Positions 421 to 21,305 are shown, numbered from the stretch's first letter. The stretch is 64,000 bases of DNA from Thermodesulfobacteriota bacterium (GCA_965197885.1 OZ240231.1:192504-256503); one strand, 5' to 3'. Numbers and translations are program-made. Notes: a model not told the origin generated them from the letters alone.

Positions 421-3400
421 ATGAAAGTAACAACACGCGGGGACGACAACGCTTTTTCTCAACGGAAGGCGAGTATCCTTAGATCTTGCCATGCTTTCTG
501 TGGAATGAGATCAGCTGCGACGTCATTTTTTATTGCTGGCGTGCTTGTCCTCGTTCTGATTCTGGTCGGGTGTGGCAGTGACACCACACCTTCCGAATCT
601 CCCGATCCCGACAATCCCGCGTACAGAGACACTGACCCCGGTGTCCCGCCTCCAACGGTCTCCGACCCCGGTGTCCCGCCGCCAACGGTCCCCGACCCCG
701 ATGTCCCGCCTCCAACGGTCTCCGACCCCGGTGTCCCGCCTCCAACGGTCTCCGACCCCGGTGTCCCGCCTCCAACGGTCTCCGACCCCGGTGTCCCGCC
801 GCCAACGGTTCCCGACCCCGGTGTCCCGCCGCCAACGGTCTCCGACCCCGAGGATCCACCGCCAACGGTCCCCGTGATACACACAACACGACTGGATCAA
901 TCCATCACCTTTAACATACAGGATAGTGACCCTCTGAATGACCGGATTCTGAGGCAACCCCAGCAAGGAACGGTGATTTTGAATGCCGACGGCTCCGTTA
1001 CCTACTCGCCCGCACCCGGGGCTGTGGGAGAAGACAGCTTCGAAATTGAAATTAACGGAATCCCACGGGAGATCACCATTAATAACAACCTCGCTTATGA
1101 AGGCCAGATTGACGGCGGGGTGGACTCCTTCGGGAACGTTGAAGTGCTGTTGACGGGGGACGGAGTATTGGAAACCGCGTCGCCGGACGCTTCCGGCAGG
1201 TTCAGGTTCTACACGTTGCCGGACGGCGACTATGTCGTCAAGGTGCGGAAAGCGGGCTACACGTCATCGCTTGCCCGAGCGTTCAGCCTGGATATCGGGC
1301 AGCATGATTCTTTGCGTGATGGGATCGACCAGTTTGTTCTGGAAGCGATCGATTCGGATACCTTTGTCTATCACTGGGAGGAAGATCAGAGTGCGGCCGG
1401 CTATGATTATGCGGCCCATGTGAACCAACCCGTGGTCGTGGAGTTTCTGGATGAGCAGGTTGAGGTGGTCGACGGAGCGTCAGCCAGCCAGCTCCATCAC
1501 GACTACAACATCCTGCTGGTCGATTCGGAAAGCGGTTCATGGACACAAGAGCATGCCTACCGCCTTCTGGAAACCATGAAGTCCATCCCGCAGAAGCGGC
1601 GGGATCCCTATAAGGAACAGAGCCTTCCCGCAAGCAAGTGGCTCCTTGCTTCCGACCACCTGGAGGATGACATCCGGATTACACATCATCAGGACGAAAA
1701 CTACAGGGCCGTTCTCATTTCCGAAGATGCCTTCGTCAATGCCAGCCCCCGGATCGCCAGGGTTGAAGGCAAGCGAGGCATCTACTACTCACAACGTCTG
1801 CACCACGCGCTGGTGCGCTTCGTCACGGATAACGGCAGGGATGAAGCGGCGTACGAAGGGATTTTCCAGTCGCGTTACGGCGTCACGACTCGCATACCGG
1901 ATTATACCCAGCTCACCAGTTCCACCACCAGCGAGTCCGCGTCGCGCTTTCAGGAATTCCACCCCGAAGAGATCGTCCAATTGATCAATATGTTTGAGGA
2001 AATGCCCAGGGGGATGCACAAACTGCCTGAGCTGCAGTATCTGGTGCGGCGCTTGGACGGCACGCCGCACCCTAGATATCCTACTGCGCCTGCGGTGGCT
2101 TGGCCCGATTACGGCTATATCGAGTTCATGGAAAGCGGGTTCAGCGGGTTTTCCGTTGCCTACGTCCATCGCCTCATCATTCACGAAAAGGCGCATTTCC
2201 TGTGGGCCCATCAGTTCGACGGGCAACTCAAGCAGGACTGGATCGAATTAGGCGGCTGGTACCACGACTCGGAAAGTCTCAATGGTTGGTCGACGAGCAA
2301 GCAAACGGAGTTTGTCTCCGCCTACGCCCACTCAAAAGATCCAAATGAGGACATGGCCGAGTCCATCGCCTACTTCATCGTGAATCCGGACAAGCTGAAA
2401 TCCCGAGCCATCGGCAAGTACGAGTTCGTCCGCGACCGCATCATGCAAGGCAACATCTACATCTCCACCATCCGAGAAGACCTGACCTTTGAGGTATATA
2501 ACCTGTATCCCGACTACGTCTTTCCGGGCAAGATCCGGCGAGTGGATATTGTGGTCGAGGGGGAGGTGGAGGACGACAAAACAATCCATGTGGAAATTGA
2601 GTTACATGCCCTGGATGAGGAGTCAGAAGGAGCGAAACACGCCCTTATGCGCATTTTCAGCGAGACCGGCACCTTGGTGGACCTGTACCTCTACCCCATG
2701 GATGCGAACGGCAACCGGCTGACTCAGGGCACGGTGCTCAAAGGCAGCTTTGCTCTCAGCAAGCACGCCAAGACCGGTTACTGGCGGCCCAACCAGATCG
2801 TCATCACGGATGCGGTTGGCAACGAGCGGTTCGAAGGGGTGAATGACTTTGGGTGGAAACTCTACGTCGGCAACCTGCTTGAGGATCTCACCGCTCCCGA
2901 GTATGTGGGCAGTACGGCGTCACTGAGCAAGAGCGTGACGAGCTTGGAAGGCCGGGAGGTTCAGTTGATTCATGCGACCTGGGAGGTGGATGAGGACACG
3001 GCAATGCGGGGACGGGCACCTTGTTATGCCAGCCTGAATGATGATTTTCTGCAAACCTACAGGTATGAAGAGCATGGTTTGTATGACCCAGCCAGCAGTC
3101 TGTGTCAGGTGGACTTTATTATGCCTCACTACATGCCTAGTTCCATCTACAGGATGAATTACATCATCATGATCGACGAGGCACTGAATAGACAGGGGGT
3201 CTACTTCACCCATCCTGGGCACGGTCTGCGTCCGGAGGAAAGTATCGTGGATGAAACGCCCCAGCAAATTGAGCTGGTAACCGACAATCCGGACCTTGAA
3301 CCCCCTGAGTTGGATATCAACGACATTCAGATCGATGCCGAGCCCACCTATCCGGATGCGCCAAATGGCGAAACCCTGGTGACGATCACCTTTCGTGTCA

Positions 3401-3669
3401 GGGACAACATATCTGGTTACAAGATCGCAAGCATGGAGCTACGCGACCCCCAAGGCATCGAGCATCAAGGCTATCACTATCATGCGGGTCGCTCCCGATT
3501 ATTCCCCGAAGGCGATCCTACCGATTGGACCACTTACACCCAAACGGTGCTCCTGCCGCCGGGTTCCGCACCCGGTACTTGGGGACTGGCCGAGATGACG
3601 ATTAGGGACCGTGCGGGCAACTTCCAGCGCTACGATTTCACCGAGATCATCCACTTCGATGTATATTAG
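421..3669 (+). CDS. secreted lipoprotein with PT-rich decapeptide repeats, a CarboxypepD_reg-like domain and a putative zinc-metallopeptidase HExxH motif
   Basis: 1082-aa ORF. Lipoprotein-type signal (LVLVLILVGCGSD). 8x [ST/P]DPGVPPPTV repeats. GNVEVLLTGDGVLETASPDASGRFRFYTLPDGDYVVKVRKAGY resembles carboxypeptidase regulatory-like domains. IIHEKAHFLW contains HExxH. GC content is visibly higher than the neighbouring genes. Confidence 0.8.
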   Translation: MKVTTRGDDNAFSQRKASILRSCHAFCGMRSAATSFFIAGVLVLVLILVGCGSDTTPSESPDPDNPAYRDTDPGVPPPTVSDPGVPPPTVPDPDVPPPTVSDPGVPPPTVSDPGVPPPTVSDPGVPPPTVPDPGVPPPTVSDPEDPPPTVPVIHTTRLDQSITFNIQDSDPLNDRILRQPQQGTVILNADGSVTYSPAPGAVGEDSFEIEINGIPREITINNNLAYEGQIDGGVDSFGNVEVLLTGDGVLETASPDASGRFRFYTLPDGDYVVKVRKAGYTSSLARAFSLDIGQHDSLRDGIDQFVLEAIDSDTFVYHWEEDQSAAGYDYAAHVNQPVVVEFLDEQVEVVDGASASQLHHDYNILLVDSESGSWTQEHAYRLLETMKSIPQKRRDPYKEQSLPASKWLLASDHLEDDIRITHHQDENYRAVLISEDAFVNASPRIARVEGKRGIYYSQRLHHALVRFVTDNGRDEAAYEGIFQSRYGVTTRIPDYTQLTSSTTSESASRFQEFHPEEIVQLINMFEEMPRGMHKLPELQYLVRRLDGTPHPRYPTAPAVAWPDYGYIEFMESGFSGFSVAYVHRLIIHEKAHFLWAHQFDGQLKQDWIELGGWYHDSESLNGWSTSKQTEFVSAYAHSKDPNEDMAESIAYFIVNPDKLKSRAIGKYEFVRDRIMQGNIYISTIREDLTFEVYNLYPDYVFPGKIRRVDIVVEGEVEDDKTIHVEIELHALDEESEGAKHALMRIFSETGTLVDLYLYPMDANGNRLTQGTVLKGSFALSKHAKTGYWRPNQIVITDAVGNERFEGVNDFGWKLYVGNLLEDLTAPEYVGSTASLSKSVTSLEGREVQLIHATWEVDEDTAMRGRAPCYASLNDDFLQTYRYEEHGLYDPASSLCQVDFIMPHYMPSSIYRMNYIIMIDEALNRQGVYFTHPGHGLRPEESIVDETPQQIELVTDNPDLEPPELDINDIQIDAEPTYPDAPNGETLVTITFRVRDNISGYKIASMELRDPQGIEHQGYHYHAGRSRLFPEGDPTDWTTYTQTVLLPPGSAPGTWGLAEMTIRDRAGNFQRYDFTEIIHFDVY
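631..870 (+). repeat. 8 tandem copies of a 30-bp unit (tccgaccccggtgtcccgcc[tg]ccaacggtc) encoding xDPGVPPPTV
   Basis: Seen directly at 631, 661, 691, 721, 751, 781, 811 and 841; the units differ by only 1-3 nt. Confidence 0.95.
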
Positions 3670-3903: not shown

Positions 3904-4773
3904 ATGCGCGACCGAACGGAGGTTTTAGAGATGGCGGATTACGCGAACCCGGACGTTCTTGTGAGCACGGACTGGGTAGAAGAGCATATTGACGACCCCG
4001 ATATAGTTATTGTGGAATCGGATGAGGACATACTGCTCTATGAAATAGGTCACATAAGAAATTCAGTAAAATTCGACTGGCAGACCGAGCTTCAGGATCA
4101 GCTTGTAAGGGATTACGTGAGCAGGGAAAACTTCGAGACGCTGCTTTCCGAAAAAGGCATTTCCAATGACCACGCGGTGGTTTTCTACGGAGACAGAAGC
4201 AACTGGTGGGCGTGCTACGCCTTCTGGACCTTCAAGGTTCTCGGACACGAAAAGTGCCTTGTAATGGACGGTGGCAGGCAAAAATGGGCTGATGAGGGAA
4301 GAGAGTTCGTAAAAGATGTTCCCGAAAGACCAAAAACGGATTACAAGGTGTCGGCGATTGATGAGTCCATAAGGGCTTTTCGGAATGAGGTGATGGAGCA
4401 CATGGAGTCTTCAAGGCCGCTTGTCGATGTCCGCTCTCCGAAAGAGTACTCGGGAGAGCTTCTTCACATGGAGGCTTACCCCCAGGAAGGCGCGCTTCGC
4501 GGAGGACATATTCCGGGTGCGGTAAACGTTCCCTGGGCTACTGCTGCCAACGAAGACGGAACTTTCCGTTCGGCCGATGAGCTTGTCGAGATATATGAAA
4601 AGGGACAGGGGCTAAGCAAGGATCAGGACGTGATTGCCTACTGCAGAATAGGAGAGCGCTCTTCTCACACCTGGTTTGTTCTTACCTATCTTCTTGGATT
4701 TGAAAACGTCAGGAATTACGACGGTTCGTGGACCGAGTGGGGAAACCTTGTGAGGGCTCCCATAGAAAGATAA
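3904..4773 (+). CDS. sseA: thiosulfate/3-mercaptopyruvate sulfurtransferase (tandem rhodanese domains)
   Basis: Two rhodanese domains; active-site loop [12 protein letters not shown] is typical of SseA/CysA-type sulfurtransferases. An alternative start at 3931 (MADYANP...) has a better SD (GGAGG 8 nt upstream). Confidence 0.85.
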
Positions 4774-4804: not shown

Positions 4805-4840
4805 GGATGTGATCTTACGGGTCCGCATCCTTTTTTTTTT
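4805..4840 (+). terminator. rho-independent terminator-like hairpin followed by T10
   Basis: ggatgtgatcttacgggtccgcatcc stem-loop followed by tttttttttt at 4831-4840, 30 nt after the sseA stop; an A-run upstream allows bidirectional function. Confidence 0.55.
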
Positions 4841-15491: not shown

Positions 15492-18400
15492 CTACCATCT
15501 GAGGTCGCCCCGGAGCGCCACCGCGTGACTGGAGGGGAGGTCGGGGTTCTCGGTGCGGTCACCCTCAAGGCTGAGGTTAAAGGAGTCGCCGAGCCTAAGG
15601 CGCCATCCCGCCCTGTATCTCCTGTCCCCAGACATGGAGAACCCTCCGTAAGGAGTGATGACTCCTGAGCCCCCAAACGCCCCCATCGCGTAACCCGCCT
15701 CGGCGTCCAGTCGTCCCGGGGCCTGATCGCCTCCTGCAAGCCCCCGCGTATCCCCCATTGCCCAAAGACCCTCAACCCCGCTTGCAGTGGTTCCAACGGA
15801 TGAACCGAGCTTTGCCGAGAATCCCCTCTCCGCTCCCCCTGGAGCGAACTGCAGGGAACCCCCGGCTCCCCATTCTGAGTAGCCGCTTCGCTCATGAGCC
15901 ATGAGCCTTCGCGCTGTAATCTCCACCGTGAGTCCTCTTGAGGGGTTTATGTAGCGCATCGCGCCTCCCATTTCAAAACCCATGCCCCTCTCCGCGTCCC
16001 CTCCGTCTCGTCTCACTCCAAGCTCAACAGACGGGATGAGGGAACTTCCCGAAGCAAATGCAAAGGGTCGGGAACCCTCAAGTACAAGGCGAAGCCTGCT
16101 TACGTCGGCTTCTGTCTCCGTCATCCGGGAGGTTCCCTCTGAAGAGGTTCTCACTAAAAGCGCGTCTGTGCGGGCTGAGATATCAAATCCCCCGGCTGCA
16201 ACCAGGGCGCCCCGGGCCCCGAGGGCCGCCATCTTCATTTCAATATCGGTTTTCTCTCCTCCTCCTTCGTAGGTAAGGGTGAGTTCACCCTTACCGTAGC
16301 CGAGAAGGGTCCAGGCGCTTAAGCGATCGTTTAAGGAGAAGCGAAGGTATGGGTGAGCGCTTGTTATGGAGCTTTTAAGGTCTCCTTTTATATCACCTGA
16401 GTTGTAAGAGCCGTCTCCCGTGCTTCTCGCAAGGGCAAGGCCCAAAAGCACACGGTCCCACGCGCGGTCAACTCCCAGGGTTGCCGTGGTTACGTCTCCG
16501 TCAATTGAGAGGTCGGAATCTCGTCCCGAGAAACTCGTCCGTGCCGCTCCTCCCCACGCCGTCCATCCGGGCCCGGGGTTTTGGGTTGCGTTCTGGGCTA
16601 GGGAAACTTCAAAGGAAGAGCTGAGCAGGAACTCCCGCATCCTGAGGCTATTGAAGTTCTCGGGGCGGCGGTCCTCGGGAACCAGTTCATCCCATGGGGA
16701 TATTTCCGTTATCTCCGTGGCGGGAGGCTCTTTCAGTTCCGCGCCTCCAAGGGTTACTCCGCGTGAGGGCTCTTGGGCGGAGGACATCCTCCCTCTTACG
16801 GCTTCCACAGCGTGGTTTGCCACTGTGCGCCCGAAGCGGGCAAGCCACGCCTTGACGCTCCGCGCCTCCTGGTGGTCGGTCGTCGTGACCATGAACGCCT
16901 GCGTCGCCGTCAGCCCGCCGGGGTCCTGTGCCGTCACCGTCACCGTCGCCGTACCCGGACGCGTCGCGGTCAGCGTCAGCGTCGCGCCGGTGAGGTGCAA
17001 CGCCACTGCCTGATCCGACACGACGGCCGTGTAGTCGAGCGCGTCGCCGTCCCGGTCTGCGAAGAACGGGATCAGATCGAGCGCCACCGGCTCGTCTCCG
17101 ATATCCAGGGTCCGATCGGGGATGACGCCCGCTGCAAGCGGCGGGTCGTTCACCGGCCGCACCGTCACGTCCACCGCCGCCCGGGCCGTCAGTCCCGATC
17201 CGTCGCCCACGACGTAGGTGAAGCTGTCGGTGCCGTGAAAGTCAGGCTCCGGCGTGTACACCACCGCTCCTGTGTCGGTCACCGCCGTGCCGTGCGTCGG
17301 CGCCGATACCTCCACCAGCGCCAGCGCGTCCCCGTCGGGGTCGCTGTCGTTGCTGAGCACGTCGATGGTAACCGGCGTGTCCTCGGGCGTGTCCGCCGCG
17401 TCGTCACCCGCCAGCGGCGGGTCGTCCACCGGCAGCACCGTCACGTCCACCGCCGCCCGGGCCGTCAGTCCCGATCCGTCGCCCACGACGTAGGTGAAGC
17501 GGTCGGTGCCGTGAAAGTCAGGCTCCGGCGTGTACACCACCGCGCCTGTGTCCGACACCACCGCCGTGCCGTGGGTCGGCGCCGATACCTCCACCACCAC
17601 CAGCGTGTTCCTGTCGGGGTCGCTGTCGTTGCCGAGCACGTCGATGGTCACCGGCGTGTCTTCGGGCGTGTCCGCCGCGTCGTCGACCGCCCGCGGCGGG
17701 TTGTTCACCGGCGGCGGCGGGGTCGTCCTGATGCGCCCCGACGGCGACCAGGGACCGGTGCCATCACTATTGGTGGCGCGCACCTGCACCTGGTAGGCGG
17801 TGGGGGCGGCGGTCAGGCCCGCGATCGTGGCGCTGGTGCCGCCCACGCCTTGGGGGCCGGGGGTAAAGTCCCCGCTTGTGCCTTCCCGGTACTGCAGGTC
17901 GTAGCTAGAGATGTCCGGCCGGCCGGTGTTCGAGGGCGCGCTCCAGCTCACCGTCAGGCTGTCGGGCGTGCCGGGGGTCGCCGTGACTCTGGGCGTCGCG
18001 GGCGCCAGCGGCCGCTCGTTGACGTCGTTAGTGAGATCAATCGTCACCGTGACCGTGTCGGTGCCGCCGTTGCCGTCGTCGGCCTTCACGATCACCGTGT
18101 AGCTCGGCGTGGTCTCGTAGTCGTAGGTGACGCCGGGCCTCGTGCGGATCTGGCCGCTGGTCGAGACGATCGAGAACGACGACGCGTCCATGCCGCCCTC
18201 CAGGGTGTAGGTCAGCTGGTCGTTGTTGCCGTCGGTGGCGGTGACGGGGGCGCCGACATCGGTGTTGGCGGGGCTGTTCTCGGCGACGCTACGCGTGGCG
18301 GTCGAGGAGGAGAACGTCGGCGCGGAGTTGCCGGCGGTGTTGGTCTGCCCCGATCCAGACGGCGACCAGGGGCTGTTGCCATCACTATTGGTGGCCCGCA

Positions 18401-20891
18401 CTTGCACCTGGTAGAGGGTGTTCGCGGTTAGGCCCGTGATCGTCGCGCTGGTGCCGGTCTCGTTCTGGGGGCCGTCGATGAAGGTCCCGCTGGTGCCTTC
18501 CCGGTACTGCAGGTCGTAGGTGTCGATGGCGGGACCGGTGTTCGTCGGCGCCGTCCAGGTCACCGACAGGCTGGTGGTGCTGCCGGCGACCGAGGACACC
18601 GAGGGGGCCGCCGGCTGGCCCGGCGGGGTGGGGACGTAGGCGTTGGTCACGGTGGTCGCGGCGCGGGCGAGGTTGCCGTTGCCAGCGGCGTCGTCGACGG
18701 CGTCGGCGGCGAGCGCCACGGTGAGGTTCGTGGCCGAAGCGGTCAGGGCCGTCGTCAGGGTGATTTCGACCTTGGTTCCAACCACGCTCGCCGCGCTCGT
18801 CGCCGCGGTGACGCTGTTGGCCTGGATGGTGATGTCGCTATGACTGACCGCTCCGATGTCCTCGCTGAACACCAGCAACACCGATGCGCCGTTGGCTGAC
18901 GTCGTCGGCGCATCGGTGCCGGTGGTGACGAGCGTCGGGCGGATGCCGTCGACCTTGTGCCCGGCGTCAATGGCGACCGCGGTGTGGTCGAGGGCGGCGC
19001 TGATGGTCGTGCTGCCGGTGGCCGTGATGGTGCCGCTGGTTAGCGTGTTCGCCGCGATCCCGACGCCGTTCGGCGCCGTGTCGCCCACGCCCACCGTGTA
19101 GCTGCACGCCATCGTGGTCGTGTTCATGCCGGTCGCGCAGGTGGCCCCTTTCGCTGTGCCGTCAAAGTCCAGCTCCAGCTCCGGGGTGCCGGTGATGTCG
19201 ACCGCCGCGTCGAAGGTCACCGTCGCCGTGACGGTGTCGCTGATCGCGTAGGTGTTGTCAGTGCCGGGGGTGGAGGTCAGCGCGACCGACGAGACCTCCG
19301 GGCCGTCGGCCGTCAGCGCCAGGCAGACCGCGTAGCCATCGGCCCAGGTGGGGACGTTGCTGTACCAGGAATAGGCGTTCTGGGCGGAGCCGTACAAAGC
19401 ATCCGCCAACTGGTACGTCTGAGTCCCGACGTGAAACACGAGATCGTCCGCGGCGGTCCCGAGTTGCTCAGTGTCTCCGAGGTTGATCTGAAGTTGGACC
19501 GAGTCGACGAATAATGAATCGATTGTGTAGTCGGTGCCACCGAAACTGATCGTTGTGTCATCGAGACTCCCCCCGAAGCTGCTGTAACCGACCGCCAACG
19601 CATTCAGCCTTCCCACGGTCAGGTTTCCCGTCCAGACCTGGTTCGTCATCGAGGCGGCGCTGCACGCGACGGGCACGGCGACGCGAAGCACCCTGACGAT
19701 GTAGGTCTCCGTGGTCGTTGTGTCGGGCGCGGTCACCTTCACCTTGACGGTGTTGGTGCCGACATCGAGGTTGACCTGGAGGCCGGCGGTCATTGTGTCG
19801 GCGTCCGTCAGCGTGGCGTCCGAATCGTCGAGATACTCGACCGTCGCCGTCGTCTCGCTTGTCATCACGGTGATCGTGCTCTGGGTCACCGCATTCGCGA
19901 CCACAGCAAGGTACTCCTCTGGTGTGGTCGTGGCCGTGCCGAACGCCGGGCTAAGCGTCGCGCCGCTCACCGACAGGGCGCTCAGCGTCGCGTCGGTGGC
20001 GTCGCCGACCGTGTTCGCATAGCCAGAGACGATGATGCGAAGCGCCTCGTTGGCCCCGGACTTAAGCATCCAGGTACTGCCGCTCTGCCAGTAGAACTTG
20101 TTTTTGATGCTCCAGTCCGCGAGGCCGAGCGACGTATCTTCTCCGCTGGAGGTGGTGGTGTTGAGCTCCACGCTCGCGGTGCCGCGCTGCGTGACGACCA
20201 CCACGTAGTTGGTGTTCGCCGAGAGGGCGAGGCCGGTGTGCGTGAACGTCGCGATGACCCCGGTCGTGAAGGTCGCCGGCGCCGTCAGGGCCGTGCAGTC
20301 GCCGGCGGTGGTGGATGGAAACTCGTTCGTGGTGCCATCCTCCTCGCAGACCTCGACGTCGAAGGGGTCGTTCTGGGCGTCCTCGGAGTTGACGCGCACG
20401 CTGGTGAGCGTGTAGCCGTTCGTGTTGGCACCCGTGTGGAACAGCTGCGCATGTTTGTTGCCACTGGTGCTGGCGTTGTCATCGGGCCCTTGCGCGGAGT
20501 TGCTCACGAGAATGCGCACCGTCTGCGCCTCCGCCGCGGCCGCCCCGAGGAGCACCAGGCCCAAGACGAGGACGGCGGTGCGGCCTGGACGGGCGTGCCG
20601 CAGGGCGGCACAGCCAAGAAGGAGCACGGCAAGGGCACGCAGTCCGCGCGCGAGGGACGAAAGCGGTTGGGTGGCTTGGGGTCGGGCGGCCGGGCTTCTT
20701 TTGCCCGAAGACCGCGCCCCGGCGGGGACGACGGAAGGCAGCTTGGCCGGGGAGGCCGAATTCAGGCGATAATCTCGGCTCCGTGTATTACAAAAATGGG
20801 GGGGGGGTAGCGCAAAGGATAGTTCTGGAATCCTCCGCGGAATCCATGGCTCTTCCCGGAATATCGCAGCCGGATGATACGGTGAAATCAA
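15492..20891 (-). CDS. giant autotransporter (type Va) adhesin, 1799 aa, with Ig-like, cadherin-like, FN3 and approximately 93-aa tandem repeat passenger domains
   Basis: C-terminal roughly 450 aa has the alternating hydrophobic pattern of an autotransporter beta-barrel and ends in ...LRGDLRW. FN3 domains (LSVTWTAPTNTGPAIDTYDLQYREG...YQVQVRATNSDG). Cadherin-like domain (ATDGNNDQLTYTLEGG...IDLTNDVNERP). Repeats of the TYTPEPDFHGTDSFTYVVGDGSG type. GC content is markedly higher than the flanks (GCC/GGC/GTC-rich codons). The annotated start is a TTG; see the phase-variation finding. Confidence 0.85.
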   Translation of the reverse strand: MISPYHPAAIFREEPWIPRRIPELSFALPPPHFCNTRSRDYRLNSASPAKLPSVVPAGARSSGKRSPAARPQATQPLSSLARGLRALAVLLLGCAALRHARPGRTAVLVLGLVLLGAAAAEAQTVRILVSNSAQGPDDNASTSGNKHAQLFHTGANTNGYTLTSVRVNSEDAQNDPFDVEVCEEDGTTNEFPSTTAGDCTALTAPATFTTGVIATFTHTGLALSANTNYVVVVTQRGTASVELNTTTSSGEDTSLGLADWSIKNKFYWQSGSTWMLKSGANEALRIIVSGYANTVGDATDATLSALSVSGATLSPAFGTATTTPEEYLAVVANAVTQSTITVMTSETTATVEYLDDSDATLTDADTMTAGLQVNLDVGTNTVKVKVTAPDTTTTETYIVRVLRVAVPVACSAASMTNQVWTGNLTVGRLNALAVGYSSFGGSLDDTTISFGGTDYTIDSLFVDSVQLQINLGDTEQLGTAADDLVFHVGTQTYQLADALYGSAQNAYSWYSNVPTWADGYAVCLALTADGPEVSSVALTSTPGTDNTYAISDTVTATVTFDAAVDITGTPELELDFDGTAKGATCATGMNTTTMACSYTVGVGDTAPNGVGIAANTLTSGTITATGSTTISAALDHTAVAIDAGHKVDGIRPTLVTTGTDAPTTSANGASVLLVFSEDIGAVSHSDITIQANSVTAATSAASVVGTKVEITLTTALTASATNLTVALAADAVDDAAGNGNLARAATTVTNAYVPTPPGQPAAPSVSSVAGSTTSLSVTWTAPTNTGPAIDTYDLQYREGTSGTFIDGPQNETGTSATITGLTANTLYQVQVRATNSDGNSPWSPSGSGQTNTAGNSAPTFSSSTATRSVAENSPANTDVGAPVTATDGNNDQLTYTLEGGMDASSFSIVSTSGQIRTRPGVTYDYETTPSYTVIVKADDGNGGTDTVTVTIDLTNDVNERPLAPATPRVTATPGTPDSLTVSWSAPSNTGRPDISSYDLQYREGTSGDFTPGPQGVGGTSATIAGLTAAPTAYQVQVRATNSDGTGPWSPSGRIRTTPPPPVNNPPRAVDDAADTPEDTPVTIDVLGNDSDPDRNTLVVVEVSAPTHGTAVVSDTGAVVYTPEPDFHGTDRFTYVVGDGSGLTARAAVDVTVLPVDDPPLAGDDAADTPEDTPVTIDVLSNDSDPDGDALALVEVSAPTHGTAVTDTGAVVYTPEPDFHGTDSFTYVVGDGSGLTARAAVDVTVRPVNDPPLAAGVIPDRTLDIGDEPVALDLIPFFADRDGDALDYTAVVSDQAVALHLTGATLTLTATRPGTATVTVTAQDPGGLTATQAFMVTTTDHQEARSVKAWLARFGRTVANHAVEAVRGRMSSAQEPSRGVTLGGAELKEPPATEITEISPWDELVPEDRRPENFNSLRMREFLLSSSFEVSLAQNATQNPGPGWTAWGGAARTSFSGRDSDLSIDGDVTTATLGVDRAWDRVLLGLALARSTGDGSYNSGDIKGDLKSSITSAHPYLRFSLNDRLSAWTLLGYGKGELTLTYEGGGEKTDIEMKMAALGARGALVAAGGFDISARTDALLVRTSSEGTSRMTETEADVSRLRLVLEGSRPFAFASGSSLIPSVELGVRRDGGDAERGMGFEMGGAMRYINPSRGLTVEITARRLMAHERSGYSEWGAGGSLQFAPGGAERGFSAKLGSSVGTTASGVEGLWAMGDTRGLAGGDQAPGRLDAEAGYAMGAFGGSGVITPYGGFSMSGDRRYRAGWRLRLGDSFNLSLEGDRTENPDLPSSHAVALRGDLRW
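17151..17709. repeat. intragenic tandem duplication (approximately 279-bp period) inside the autotransporter gene
   Basis: caccggc[ca]gcaccgtcacgtccaccgccgcccgggccgtcagtcccgatccgtcgcccacgacgtaggtgaagc... occurs at about 17151 and again at about 17431 with more than 95% identity. Confidence 0.85.
20798..20807. repeat. G10 homopolymer (C10 on the coding strand) in the 5' region of the autotransporter gene; candidate slipped-strand phase-variation tract
   Basis: Ten consecutive G at 20798-20807. It encodes PPP/PPH in two overlapping frames (see finding). Confidence 0.9.
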
Positions 20892-21305
20892 GCATTGTTC
20901 GAAAACCTCCGTAGGGAATCAGCTTCTTTGGGAGTATAACATACACCGACCGGTTATACCAAGTCATTTTACGCCGCAAGGATTTTTTGGTTCCGATTTC
21001 CGCAGCGATAGCGGGACCGGCACGGCATCGGCCCGCATTCCGGCAATCTGACGGTCATGCTGCCTGATTCAGACAGAATACGGCATCGATTCCCGCGGAA
21101 CCGGCAATCCTCACCGACCAGCGGACGCAGCAACCCCTTCAGGGTTGCCTGCAGCTAAAATTGTTTTGCTTGATTCAAGCTTCAAAGAGAAGTACTGGGT
21201 AAAAAGTTTTTCGCCCCCTGCGAAAACCCTTGCTCTATATGCGTATACTCAACAGCGTAAATGCCTCTCGAAGCGTCTATACACGGAGTCGCAAAGACGA
21301 TTTTT

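What the first reader, a model, noticed from the sequence alone, without database searches (positions are those of the whole stretch)
20760..20900. C10/G10 homopolymer arranged as a frame-switch between a well-positioned ATG and the 1799-aa autotransporter ORF: candidate phase-variation (contingency) locus
On the coding (minus) strand an ATG (complement of 20894-20896) sits 10 nt downstream of a GGAGG Shine-Dalgarno. In this assembly it opens a 35-codon frame (MLDFTVSSGCDIPGRAMDSAEDSRTILCATPPPFL*) that terminates two codons after the C10 tract. The 1799-aa autotransporter ORF is in the +1 frame and is reachable only from a TTG 4 nt further on, with poor SD spacing. I checked by hand that removing one C (C9), or adding two, fuses the ATG-initiated peptide in frame to the giant ORF (...CATPPHFCNTRSRDY...). 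Length variation of the tract would therefore switch expression of the adhesin between ON and OFF, the classic slipped-strand mechanism of Neisseria, Haemophilus and Bordetella surface-protein genes. The ORF's signal peptide (RTAVLVLGLVLLGAAAAEA) lies about 100 codons further downstream. The tract could alternatively sit in a 5' leader; it would still be a contingency tract.
Basis: partly seen in the sequence, partly recalled or inferred. Interest (0 to 1): 0.8.

Follow-up and report, generated by a model that had tools for sequence, protein, structure and literature searches.

The report
Poly-C switch ahead of symbiont adhesin
A run of ten C's sits in the translated 5' leader of a giant secreted adhesin gene, and relatives of this gene in probable sponge symbionts from six bacterial phyla carry length-variable simple repeats at the same spot, so it looks like an on/off (phase-variation) switch, although this lineage's copy is fixed at ten C's in all 13 copies examined.

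Summary
C10 lies at 20798-20807 on the minus strand. That ATG opens a 35-codon ORF ending at TAA 20790-20788. The 1799-aa ORF is in the +1 frame, and C9 or C12 fuses the two.

A C/G run of 10 or more somewhere in this window is not unusual by composition (29% of shuffles). Its position is the unusual part. In 21 related loci from six phyla, 11 of 12 perfect simple repeats fall in the 350 nt before the signal-peptide cleavage site (p about 5e-15). The repeats are poly-C of 10-38, (TC)16, (AGCCG)n, (AGAGCCG)n and (ACCGCAG)20. Lengths differ between close relatives: C16 vs C12, about 5 vs 15 units, about 7 vs 27 units. Repeat-free relatives start at an SD-preceded codon that is in frame 52-123 codons upstream, which matches the predicted fusion.

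Against active switching here: all 13 window-type copies carry exactly C10, which is out of frame with the ATG. All six repeat-bearing coding-type loci share that same +1 register.

Verdict: partly supported. This is a probable Opa-like translational switch and a new member of a known kind. Switching in this lineage is not shown.

The parts
20933..20962 (-). Sigma70-like promoter: -35 TTGGTA (20962-20957), 18-nt spacer, TG-extended -10 TATACT (20938-20933). It puts the transcription start about 30 nt upstream of the ATG, so the C tract is transcribed at roughly +120.
   Evidence: Consensus scan, (2 sites found against 0.4 expected). Both hexamers are retained in L013 (TTGGCA / TGTTATACT) while the spacer, the discriminator and everything upstream diverge. 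Function is inferred, not shown.
20906..20910 (-). Shine-Dalgarno GGAGG, 10 nt upstream of ATG1 and 14 nt upstream of the TTG.
   Evidence: Invariant in all aligned copies.
20788..20895 (-). 35-codon leader ORF (ATG1 20895-20893 to TAA 20790-20788) that reads through the tract as Pro-Pro-Pro. A second in-frame ATG lies at 20847-20845, preceded by GGGAAGAG. That second ATG is homologous to the SD-ATG start of the Acidobacteriota/Gemmatimonadota relatives.
   Evidence: Gene callers elsewhere called this frame as a 59-aa product in 9 contigs. Leu-Asp at codons 2-3 varies synonymously across lineages (CTT GAT / CTT GAC / CTC GAC). Within the lineage, 0 of 6 substitutions are synonymous in this frame.
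20889..20891 (-). TTG, the only canonical start codon in frame with the big ORF upstream of the tract at C10. SD spacing is poor (14 nt).
   Evidence: There is no TTG at the homologous place in L020 (CTCGAC).
20798..20807 (-). C10 homopolymer (G10 on the + strand), the candidate slipped-strand switch. The G+C content rises from about 50% to about 66% around here.
   Evidence: The homologous tract is C10 in L013, C12 in L021, C13 in L018, C14 in L019 and C16 in L020 (alignment A3). L025 has C38.
20759..20780 (-). Post-tract leader motifs. AGCCGAG (20780-20774) is a 1.5-unit vestige of the (AGCCG)n/(AGAGCCG)n repeats found at this place in relatives. CCTGAATT (20766-20759) contains a TGA (20764-20762) that closes the third frame. 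It aligns with the uORF stop/ATGA start motif of L018 and L020.
   Evidence: and comparison with L006, L014, L046 and L047 and with L018 and L020. The homology was judged by eye on short motifs.
20526..20627 (-). Signal-peptide-like segment. The in-frame GTG at 20627 has no SD and would give MLLLGCAALRHARPGRTAVLVLGLVLLGAAAAEA. The predicted cleavage AEA|QT lies between 20526 and 20525.
   Evidence: Some gene callers used this GTG (P0009, P0014, P0051). AEAQT is invariant in the family alignment A2. No signal-peptide predictor was available.
15492..20797 (-). Main adhesin ORF downstream of the tract. It contains a choice-of-anchor R domain (about 20052-20480), a Cadherin-like domain, fn3 x2, a cadherin domain, Big_9/tandem-95 repeats, a PKD domain and a C-terminal beta-barrel-like domain (about 15492-16640).
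   Evidence: Pfam. NCBIfam (NF041539, 53.3 bits against a cut-off of 30). For the C-terminus. The ORF is intact over about 1770 codons.

Best explanation
The C10 run is this genome's version of a simple-repeat switch carried in the 5' leader of a horizontally spread family of secreted 'choice-of-anchor R' adhesins. The family is found in bacteria that are probably sponge-associated.

Proposed mechanism:
1. The mRNA starts at a conserved sigma70-like promoter about 30 nt upstream of the only strong ribosome-binding site (inferred).
2. Ribosomes initiate at ATG 20895 and read the C run as prolines (inferred).
3. With 10 C's they terminate at TAA two codons later. With 11 C's they terminate at the TGA of GCCTGAAT. 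With 9 or 12 C's they continue into the 1,800-aa pre-protein. Its 120-residue N-terminal leader matches the long leaders of repeat-free relatives. (Shown in silico.)
4. Slipped-strand gain or loss of a C during replication therefore turns the adhesin ON or OFF, as the CTCTT repeats in the leader-peptide region do for Neisseria opa. (Inferred by analogy and from family-wide repeat polymorphism.)
5. In the OFF register the 170-nt C-rich untranslated stretch downstream would probably also be exposed to Rho-dependent polarity. (Speculative.)

As assembled, this copy and all its close relatives are in the OFF (+1) register. Expression would need a C9/C12 subpopulation, rare +1 slippage of tRNA-Pro on the C run, or weak use of the TTG.
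For: 1. Anatomy and frame logic were verified.
2. There is a conserved promoter and SD upstream, and no SD before the alternative GTG at 20627.
3. Of 11 repeat-free relatives, 10 have an SD-preceded ATG/GTG/TTG in frame and open to the main ORF, 156-370 nt upstream of the cleavage site. Long translated leaders are therefore the family norm. The window's second ATG (20847) is homologous to that start.
4. Perfect repeats whose unit length is not a multiple of three recur at this position in six phyla: C10-C38, (TC)16.5, (AGCCG)5.6 and about 15, (AGAGCCG)7.3 and about 27, (ACCGCAG)20.4. Eleven of 12 repeats lie in the leader (p about 5e-15).
5. Lengths differ between close relatives. L020 and L021 are 99.2% identical over 8.5 kb yet carry C16 and C12. 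Flank alignment places the poly-C at a homologous position, with lengths 10, 10, 12, 13, 14 and 16.
6. L019 (C14) is in the fused register.
7. A second C10 inside the coding region of L013 splits that ORF by one base. This is the same type of tract in the same gene.
8. Several paralogues per genome carry different repeat states, for example L008 and L014 in one MAG.
9. The main ORF is intact over about 1770 codons, so the gene is not decayed.
Against: 1. There is no length variation in this lineage. C10 was read directly in 10 copies and inferred in 3 more. These span three loci, two samples and one MAG, and include L013, whose leader is about 5% diverged. Selection for mere OFF would also allow C8 or C11.
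2. All six repeat-bearing 'coding-type' loci (W, L013, L006, L046, L014, L047) share the same +1 register despite different copy numbers. This suggests the short-ORF configuration is itself selected.
3. In L018, L020, L021 and L025 the main gene has its own SD+ATG 20-36 nt after the tract, with a stop in between. Fusion cannot be the family-wide mechanism.
4. A 120-residue extension before a Sec-type hydrophobic core is atypical.
5. Substitutions in the leader show no synonymous excess: 0 synonymous to 6 non-synonymous in the ATG frame, and about 6 to 9 between the tract and the GTG.
6. Only assembly consensus was available. There are no reads and no expression data.
Confidence: 0.47

Rival explanations
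1. Fixed regulatory leader ORF. The 35-codon ORF is the functional state, not an OFF state. Ribosomes translating Pro-Pro-Pro at its end pause in an EF-P-dependent way and/or mask a C-rich Rho loading site. This sets how much transcription or translation reaches the adhesin ORF. The adhesin ORF then starts downstream, at GTG 20627 or by re-initiation, for example at the in-frame CTG 20765. Tract length is conserved because the register matters.
For: - C10 is invariant in 13 of 13 copies.
- Six of six repeat-bearing coding-type loci are in the same +1 register, each with a short ORF ending soon after the repeat.
- In L018, L020, L021 and L025 an SD-led short ORF reads through the poly-C just upstream of a separate SD+ATG. 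In L018 its stop overlaps the start as ATGA.
- A C run encodes proline in every frame.
- The leader downstream of the stop is C-rich and G-poor.
Against: - Pure C runs of 12-38, and 5- or 7-nt repeats at the same site, look like products of slippage rather than selected Pro codons.
- The peptide is not conserved within the lineage: 0 of 6 substitutions are synonymous.
- No terminator/antiterminator fold was found: leader MFE z = +0.33, and no Rfam match.
- GTG 20627 has no SD.
- Repeat-free relatives use one long in-frame ORF.
Confidence: 0.22
2. The TTG at 20891 is the real start. The 1799-aa ORF is translated as annotated by some gene callers. C10 simply encodes Pro-Pro-Pro in a long N-terminal leader, and the overlapping ATG ORF is incidental. 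The tract is held at C10 by purifying selection on the reading frame.
For: - The TTG ORF is open only at C10, which would explain the invariance.
- Gene callers chose this start for P0001-P0003.
- Two of 6 leader substitutions are synonymous in the TTG frame, against 0 of 6 in the ATG frame.
Against: - TTG is 14 nt from the SD and 4 nt after a better-placed ATG.
- The TTG is absent at the homologous site of L020, whereas Leu-Asp in the ATG frame varies synonymously across lineages.
- By homology with Acidobacteriota relatives, the coding frame upstream of the repeat is the ATG frame.
- The substitution counts are too small to discriminate.
Confidence: 0.1
3. Programmed or leaky +1 recoding. 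The gene is constitutively expressed at a set low level because tRNA-Pro slips +1 on ACC-CCC-CCC-CCA (or RNA polymerase slips on the run). This joins the ATG frame to the adhesin frame without any DNA change.
For: - The required shift is +1.
- CCC-C is the classic +1-prone proline site (PMC7577736, PMC4519876).
- All six repeat-bearing coding-type loci need exactly +1.
- C10 is invariant.
Against: - The 5- and 7-nt-repeat loci have no conserved slippery proline site before their stops; a CCC-C is present only in L006.
- There is no prfB-like stimulator, meaning an SD 3 nt upstream or a stop in the A site.
- Efficiency is unknown.
Confidence: 0.08
4. Artefact or decay. Either the true tract length differs from the assembled C10 because of long-read homopolymer error, or the 5' region is a decaying, non-functional remnant of horizontal transfer in which repeats expand neutrally.
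For: - The related data are long-read metagenome assemblies (contig names).
- Many ENA alleles of the gene are split into several frames.
- L013 has a one-base frame break at a second C10.
Against: - Thirteen independent consensus sequences at 7-64x coverage agree on C10, while the same kind of data resolves C12-C38 elsewhere.
- The frame-breaking indels between L028 and the window are not in homopolymers.
- The window ORF is intact over about 1770 codons.
- The leader is more conserved (95-99%) than the mature protein (71-88% aa).
Confidence: 0.08

Closest known systems
Neisseria opa genes: (CTCTT)n repeats in the leader-peptide-coding region (PMC3960869)
   Same: A multi-copy outer-membrane adhesin family. 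A simple repeat whose unit is not a multiple of three sits between the start codon and the signal-peptide core. Repeat number sets the reading frame, so translation is ON or OFF. Paralogues in one genome are in different states.
   Different: Here the repeat is a homopolymer in this lineage; relatives have 2-, 5- or 7-nt units. The leader is far longer, at about 120 codons. The hosts are uncultured, probably sponge-associated bacteria of six phyla rather than a human pathogen. No length variation was seen in this lineage. Switching has not been measured.
Poly-C/G tracts in Neisseria autotransporter genes (nalP, ausI/mspA; own knowledge) and in the opc promoter (PMC3960869); Bordetella fim promoter C-stretch (own knowledge)
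   Same: A C/G homopolymer of about 9-14 is associated with an autotransporter or surface-protein gene. It acts either by frame (coding tracts) or by promoter geometry.
   Different: In the window the tract lies about 120 nt downstream of the predicted promoter, so a spacer role is unlikely. It lies in a leader ORF far upstream of the signal peptide. In L018, L020 and L025 it lies between a short ORF and the main start, an arrangement not described for those genes.
Haemophilus influenzae HMW1A adhesin: (ATCTTTC)n in the transcribed 5'-UTR, RNase III-processed hairpin (PMC12721329)
   Same: A heptanucleotide or other repeat lies in the transcribed leader of a large secreted adhesin. Expression depends on repeat length without any frame change. 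This is the closest model for L024, which has TTGACA-17-CACAAT followed by (ACCGCAG)20, and possibly for L018, L020, L023 and L025.
   Different: No stable long hairpin is predicted for the window leader (z = +0.33). The window tract is inside an SD-led ORF.
Leader-peptide control with proline codons or ribosome pausing (mgtL/mgtP, tnaC-Rho, EF-P-dependent polyproline; own knowledge)
   Same: A short SD-led ORF ends in consecutive prolines just upstream of the regulated gene. C-rich RNA lies downstream of its stop.
   Different: No alternative terminator structures were found. The peptide is not conserved. The proline codons form a pure, length-variable homopolymer across lineages, which points to slippage.

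Membership tests
Simple-sequence-repeat (slipped-strand) phase-variable contingency locus | A perfect repeat tract long enough to be hypermutable (G/C homopolymer of about 8-9 or more) | tested here: met
   C10 at 20798-20807. It is the only G/C run of 8 or more in the 64 kb.
Simple-sequence-repeat (slipped-strand) phase-variable contingency locus | The tract is placed so that a length change alters expression (5' coding region or promoter) | tested here: met
   In-silico editing: C9 or C12 gives an 1800/1801-aa ORF from the SD-ATG. C10 and C11 give 35 and 44 aa.
Simple-sequence-repeat (slipped-strand) phase-variable contingency locus | Tract length polymorphic among strains or copies of the same lineage | tested here: not met
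   All 13 window-type copies are C10 (10 read directly, 3 inferred). They span three loci, two ENA samples and one MAG. Alternative-register products are not in the collection. This is consensus level only.
Simple-sequence-repeat (slipped-strand) phase-variable contingency locus | Homologous tracts polymorphic across the gene family | tested here: met
   The homologous poly-C is 10, 12, 13, 14 or 16 long. L020 and L021 are 99.2% identical but carry C16 and C12. AGCCG is present at 5.6 and about 15 copies, AGAGCCG at 7.3 and about 27. SSR enrichment in the leader has p about 5e-15.
Simple-sequence-repeat (slipped-strand) phase-variable contingency locus | Within-population length heterogeneity and reversible ON/OFF expression | not testable with these tools
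   This needs read pile-ups, amplicon sequencing and expression assays.
Type Va (classical) autotransporter | C-terminal autotransporter beta-domain (PF03797) | tested here: inconclusive
   The protein itself gives only OMP_b-brl at E = 1.2e-3, below the cut-off, and has no PDB sequence match. Homologues of the last 382 aa at 35-53% identity carry PF03797, and two are named autotransporter by NCBI. The protein ends in ...LRGDLRW.
Type Va (classical) autotransporter | N-terminal Sec signal peptide and a passenger domain | tested here: inconclusive
   Passenger domains are present: choice-of-anchor R, Cadherin-like, fn3, Big_9 and PKD. A signal-peptide-like h-region and an AEA|QT site are seen in the sequence. 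The true start codon is unresolved and no predictor was available.
Choice-of-anchor R domain proteins (NCBIfam NF041539) | Match to the family model above its curated cut-off | tested here: met
   53.3 bits against a cut-off of 30, E = 2.9e-14, at residues 50-192 of the GTG-start protein.
Leader-peptide transcription attenuator | A short SD-led ORF plus mutually exclusive terminator/antiterminator structures before the regulated gene | tested here: not met
   The SD-led 35-codon ORF is present. However, the leader fold is no more stable than shuffles (z = +0.33). The only terminator-like hit in the leader is weak: 5 bp with a T-poor tail, at 20640-20624. There is no Rfam match. A Rho-dependent variant cannot be tested.
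Programmed +1 ribosomal frameshift site (prfB-like) | A slippery P-site codon, plus a slow or stop A-site codon and an upstream SD-like stimulator at the correct spacing | tested here: inconclusive
   The slippery CCC-C run is present and the needed direction is +1. There is no stop in the A site and no SD-like element 3 nt upstream. Efficiency is untestable here.

The most novel reading that the evidence does not exclude
The repeat-bearing leader is a portable control module. It moves horizontally together with the choice-of-anchor R adhesin among probable sponge symbionts of at least six phyla, and the repeat unit turns over at one site (C, TC, AGCCG, AGAGCCG, ACCGCAG). Every coding-type copy sits in the same +1 register, and C10 is fixed in 13 of 13 copies. 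Together these would mean the module is not a simple stochastic ON/OFF switch. It would instead be a selected short-ORF/recoding device, acting by regulated +1 frameshifting or by termination-reinitiation coupled to proline decoding, that tunes adhesin output in the host.
Probability: 0.15. Interest if true: 0.8.

Novelty: new member of a known kind. Interest (0 to 1): 0.6.

Why it matters
Repeat-driven phase variation is mostly known from small-genome, host-adapted pathogens (the abstract of PMC11475388 says as much). Three searches of the held literature found no paper linking sponge symbionts with repeat-mediated phase variation.

If the switch is real, several things follow:
- A horizontally shared adhesin family in uncultured Acidobacteriota, Gemmatimonadota, Chloroflexota, Actinomycetota, Thermodesulfobacteriota and Gammaproteobacteria would be under contingency-type control. 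These bacteria are probably sponge-associated. The sponge link is inferred from the genus names Poriferisodalis and Spongiisocius and was not verified from sample metadata.
- Surface variation, whether for evasion of host phagocytosis, phage evasion or niche switching, would then be a general feature of animal-microbe mutualism.
- These repeats would give a direct, sequence-readable marker of adhesin expression state in long-read metagenomes.
- Annotation is affected too. Gene callers placed the start of this gene in at least four different places.

Tried and rejected
- DNA uptake sequences. The ~51% G+C and poly-C suggested Neisseria or Pasteurellaceae, but the DUS/USS motifs are essentially absent: one chance-level hit each for two of the eleven motifs tested.
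- Rfam scan of the leader on both strands at E up to 1: nothing.
- RNA fold of the 367-nt leader: not more stable than shuffles (z = +0.33). There is only a local hairpin just before the tract. A riboswitch-like or HMW-like long hairpin is not supported.
- Exact look-up of the neighbouring RF-1 protein to fetch other copies of the locus: not on record.
- Homologue search with the hypothetical C9 fusion N-terminus: 649 candidates, none scored. Even P0001-P0003, which share about 90 identical residues, did not score, so the result is uninformative. A composition filter is the probable cause.
- Exact look-up of ten hypothetical C7, C8, C11 and C13 leader products: none in the collection. This is only a weak negative.
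- Metagenome-contig scan with the 22-nt flank: no match. The protein-pattern scan returned only distant Cadherin-like hits plus one internal domain copy (L031), with no new leaders.
- Synonymous/non-synonymous counting in the leader to decide which frame is translated: too few substitutions.
- Homopolymer error as the cause of fragmented alleles: the frame-breaking indels between L028 and the window are not in homopolymers.
- A promoter-spacer role for the window tract: rejected, because the conserved promoter lies about 120 nt upstream. This role remains possible for L018, L020, L023 and L025.
- A conserved slippery site for +1 frameshifting in the 5- and 7-nt-repeat loci: not found.

Full report
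**1. What is there**

All positions in this section are on the minus strand.
- GGAGG lies at 20910-20906 and is followed by a 10-nt spacer.
- The ATG lies at 20895-20893.
- A run of exactly ten C's lies at 20807-20798.
- The ATG frame reads MLDFTVSSGCDIPGRAMDSAEDSRTILCATPPPFL and stops at TAA 20790-20788.
- A TTG at 20891, 14 nt from the SD, opens the 1799-aa ORF 15492..20891 in the +1 frame.

Editing the tract in silico gives the following:
- C9 and C12 fuse the ATG to the big ORF, giving 1800 and 1801 aa.
- C10 gives 35 aa, C11 gives 44 aa and C8 gives 43 aa.
- The TTG ORF is open only at C10.

A sigma70-like promoter (TTGGTA-18-TGtTATACT, 20962-20933) lies about 30 nt upstream of the ATG. 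The tract is the only G/C homopolymer of 8 or more in the window. However, 29% of block-shuffled windows contain such a run, because the gene is 63-72% G+C in a roughly 50% G+C context. The tract's existence is therefore not significant in itself.

**2. The gene**

- The ORF encodes a choice-of-anchor R domain (NF041539, 53 bits against a cut-off of 30). It also has Cadherin-like, fn3, cadherin, Big_9/tandem-95 and PKD domains.
- The C-terminal 380 aa reach only OMP_b-brl at E = 1e-3 on their own and match no PDB sequence.
- Homologues of that C-terminus at 35-53% identity carry PF03797, and two are named autotransporter. 'Autotransporter' is therefore likely but only indirectly supported.
- Neighbours are prfA (transcribed divergently), ccsB-like, 5-formyl-THF cyclo-ligase and an RNase Y fragment.

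**3. Close relatives: the tract does not vary**

Homologues of the first 520 aa are all from metagenome assemblies. The window-type leader was read in nine further contigs or MAG loci: L001-L003, L013 and L026-L030. They lie at three different genomic sites:
- next to prfA, as in the window;
- next to yjbQ;
- at a third site in the Thermodesulfobacteriota MAG OZ252213.1.

They come from two ENA samples plus that MAG.

Every one has exactly C10. Three more contigs carry a 59-aa call ending ...TPPPFL, which requires C10. Ten hypothetical products of other registers are absent from the protein collection. That is only a weak negative.

From the -35 element to the signal peptide, the leader is 95-99% identical. 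The mature N-terminal region is only 71-88% identical in amino acids, and the gene bodies of the six alleles compared with the window copy are 87-94% identical in DNA.

Substitution patterns do not settle which frame is read. In the ATG frame 0 of 6 substitutions are synonymous, and in the TTG frame 2 of 6. Between the tract and GTG 20627 there are about 6 synonymous and 9 non-synonymous changes.

**4. The wider family: repeats recur at this spot and do vary**

A scan of species-representative genomes found 22 loci at 30-79% identity. Taxonomy was checked. The hosts are:
- Acidobacteriota: Vicinamibacterales/Vicinamibacteria, Terriglobia and Ca. Versatilivoraceae;
- Gemmatimonadota: Longimicrobiales;
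- Thermodesulfobacteriota;
- Actinomycetota: Ca. Poriferisodalis and Ca. Spongiisocius;
- Chloroflexota: Dehalococcoidia;
- Gammaproteobacteria.

This distribution, together with a 66% G+C gene in a 50% G+C genome, indicates horizontal spread. The sponge association is inferred from the genus names only.

Ten of 21 loci have a perfect simple repeat within 350 nt upstream of the AEA|QT site:

| Locus | Repeat |
|---|---|
| L013 | C10 |
| L021 | C12 |
| L018 | C13 |
| L019 | C14 |
| L020 | C16 |
| L025 | C38 |
| L023 | (TC)16.5 |
| L006 | (AGCCG)5.6 |
| L014 | (AGAGCCG)7.3 |
| L024 | (ACCGCAG)20.4 |

Only one other such repeat occurs in 177 kb of flanks. It is a second C10 inside the L013 gene, and it breaks the frame by one base. 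The enrichment has binomial p = 4.7e-15.

Lengths differ between close relatives:
- L020 and L021 are 99.2% identical over 8.5 kb but carry C16 and C12.
- AGCCG is present at 5.6 copies in L006 and about 15 in L046.
- AGAGCCG is present at 7.3 copies in L014 and about 27 in L047.

Flank alignment shows the poly-C tracts of the window, L013 and L018-L021 are at a homologous position. The window also keeps a 1.5-unit vestige (AGCCGAG, 20780-20774) of the pentamer/heptamer repeat.

**5. Where translation starts in the family**

Ten of 11 repeat-free loci have an SD-preceded ATG/GTG/TTG that is in frame and open to the main ORF, 156-370 nt (52-123 codons) upstream of the cleavage site. Long translated leaders are therefore normal here, and the window's C9 fusion (120 codons) fits.

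The window's second ATG (20847, in the same frame as ATG1) aligns with the start of the Acidobacteriota group, GGGAGAAAAGTcATG. Leu-Asp after ATG1 varies synonymously between the window, L019 and L020, and the TTG is not conserved in L020. Both points favour the ATG frame.

In repeat-bearing loci of this type the SD-ATG is out of frame, and always by +1. This holds for W, L013, L006, L046, L014 and L047. Only L019 is in frame.

In L018, L020, L021 and L025 a separate SD+ATG+signal peptide lies 20-36 nt after the tract, with a stop in between. An SD-led short ORF reads through the tract. In L018 its stop overlaps the start as ATGA. In L024 the heptamer array follows directly after TTGACA-17-CACAAT, so it lies at the start of the 5'-UTR.

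**6. Interpretation**

The most economical reading is that the family carries a slippage-prone repeat in its leader as an expression switch. In the window it would act on the reading frame, in the manner of opa (PMC3960869). In some relatives it would act through the 5'-UTR or a short-ORF coupling, in the manner of hmw1A (PMC12721329).

Two facts keep this from being a firm call for the window:
- C10 is strictly invariant in 13 copies.
- All out-of-frame loci share the +1 register.

Both facts would also be expected under three other models:
- the short-ORF configuration is itself functional, as a fixed regulatory leader;
- the TTG is the real start;
- tRNA-Pro slips +1 on the C run, since CCC-C sites are intrinsically +1-prone (PMC7577736, PMC4519876).

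No RNA family or unusually stable fold supports a riboswitch- or hairpin-type element.

**7. Novelty**

Repeat-mediated phase variation of adhesins is a well-known kind of system, and the window's tract would be a new member of it. Three searches of the held literature found no paper linking sponge symbionts with repeat-mediated phase variation. What is less ordinary:
- the probable sponge-symbiont setting across six phyla;
- the turnover of repeat unit types at one homologous site of a horizontally spread gene;
- the uniform +1 register.

Read-level tract lengths from the existing HiFi data would decide the main question.

Noticed in passing
L004-L025; window 15492-20891: The N-terminal choice-of-anchor R region of this adhesin occurs at 50-79% amino-acid identity in MAGs of six phyla. 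Genus names (Poriferisodalis, Spongiisocius) suggest sponge association. Often there are two paralogues per genome. In the window the gene is 63-72% G+C against about 50% in the flanks. Together this points to recent cross-phylum horizontal transfer.
   Followed up: partly
L013:5031-5040: A second C10 tract lies inside the coding region of the orthologue in Thermodesulfobacteriota MAG OZ252213.1 (...EFTSTPPP|NPAYAIG...). It splits the ORF into a 469-codon and a 1322-codon frame. C11 or C8 would restore the frame. The window has no tract at that place.
   Followed up: partly
W, L013, L006, L046, L014, L047: All six repeat-bearing loci whose SD-ATG lies upstream of the repeat are out of frame by the same +1 nt, despite very different repeat copy numbers. 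Random OFF states would be split between +1 and +2. This is unexplained.
   Followed up: partly
window about 19360-19580; L001-L003, L026-L030: A hypervariable stretch follows the conserved ...NRIWTGNLTVG motif. Many alleles in the ENA contigs are broken into several reading frames there, and the frame-breaking indels checked (L028 vs the window) are not in homopolymers. The window's own copy is intact. Possible causes are mosaic recombination, pseudogenes or strain-mixture assembly.
   Followed up: partly
window 21060-21076 (minus strand): An imperfect palindrome, CTGTCTGA-A-TCAGGCAG, lies at the 5' edge of the roughly 520-nt block that is near-identical between the prfA-adjacent and yjbQ-adjacent copies. 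The shared block begins about here. It could be an operator or a recombination boundary.
   Followed up: no
L006:3856-3861, L014, L046, L047, L024:3700-3705: A perfect TTGACA hexamer lies about 25-35 nt upstream of the repeat array in all five 5-/7-nt-repeat loci. In L024 the arrangement is TTGACA-17-CACAAT followed by the array. In the others it falls inside the conserved 'K-x-L-T' codons of the leader ORF. It is therefore unclear whether this is a promoter element or coding conservation.
   Followed up: no
window 634-850 and 317-357: A 30-nt unit is repeated 7.2 times (10-aa repeats, in frame) near the 5' end of another large Big_9/cadherin-like ORF (421-3669, 1082 aa). Just upstream of that ORF is a 21-nt direct repeat, AAAAAAGGGGGAGGGGCAATT, present twice.
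   Followed up: partly
window 4831-4840: A T10 homopolymer, the only other run of 10 in the window, lies just after the ORF 3904-4773.
   Followed up: no
window 17137-17712: A 279-nt unit is repeated 2.1 times at 92% identity inside the adhesin gene (the Big_9/tandem-95 domain pair). Copy number of this unit differs among alleles, for example extra copies in L003.
   Followed up: no
L024:2881-2984; L023:3722-3729: Further repeats lie near family members. L024 has a 33-nt unit repeated 3.2 times about 750 nt upstream of its heptamer array. L023 has a G8 run about 115 nt upstream of its (TC)16 array.
   Followed up: no
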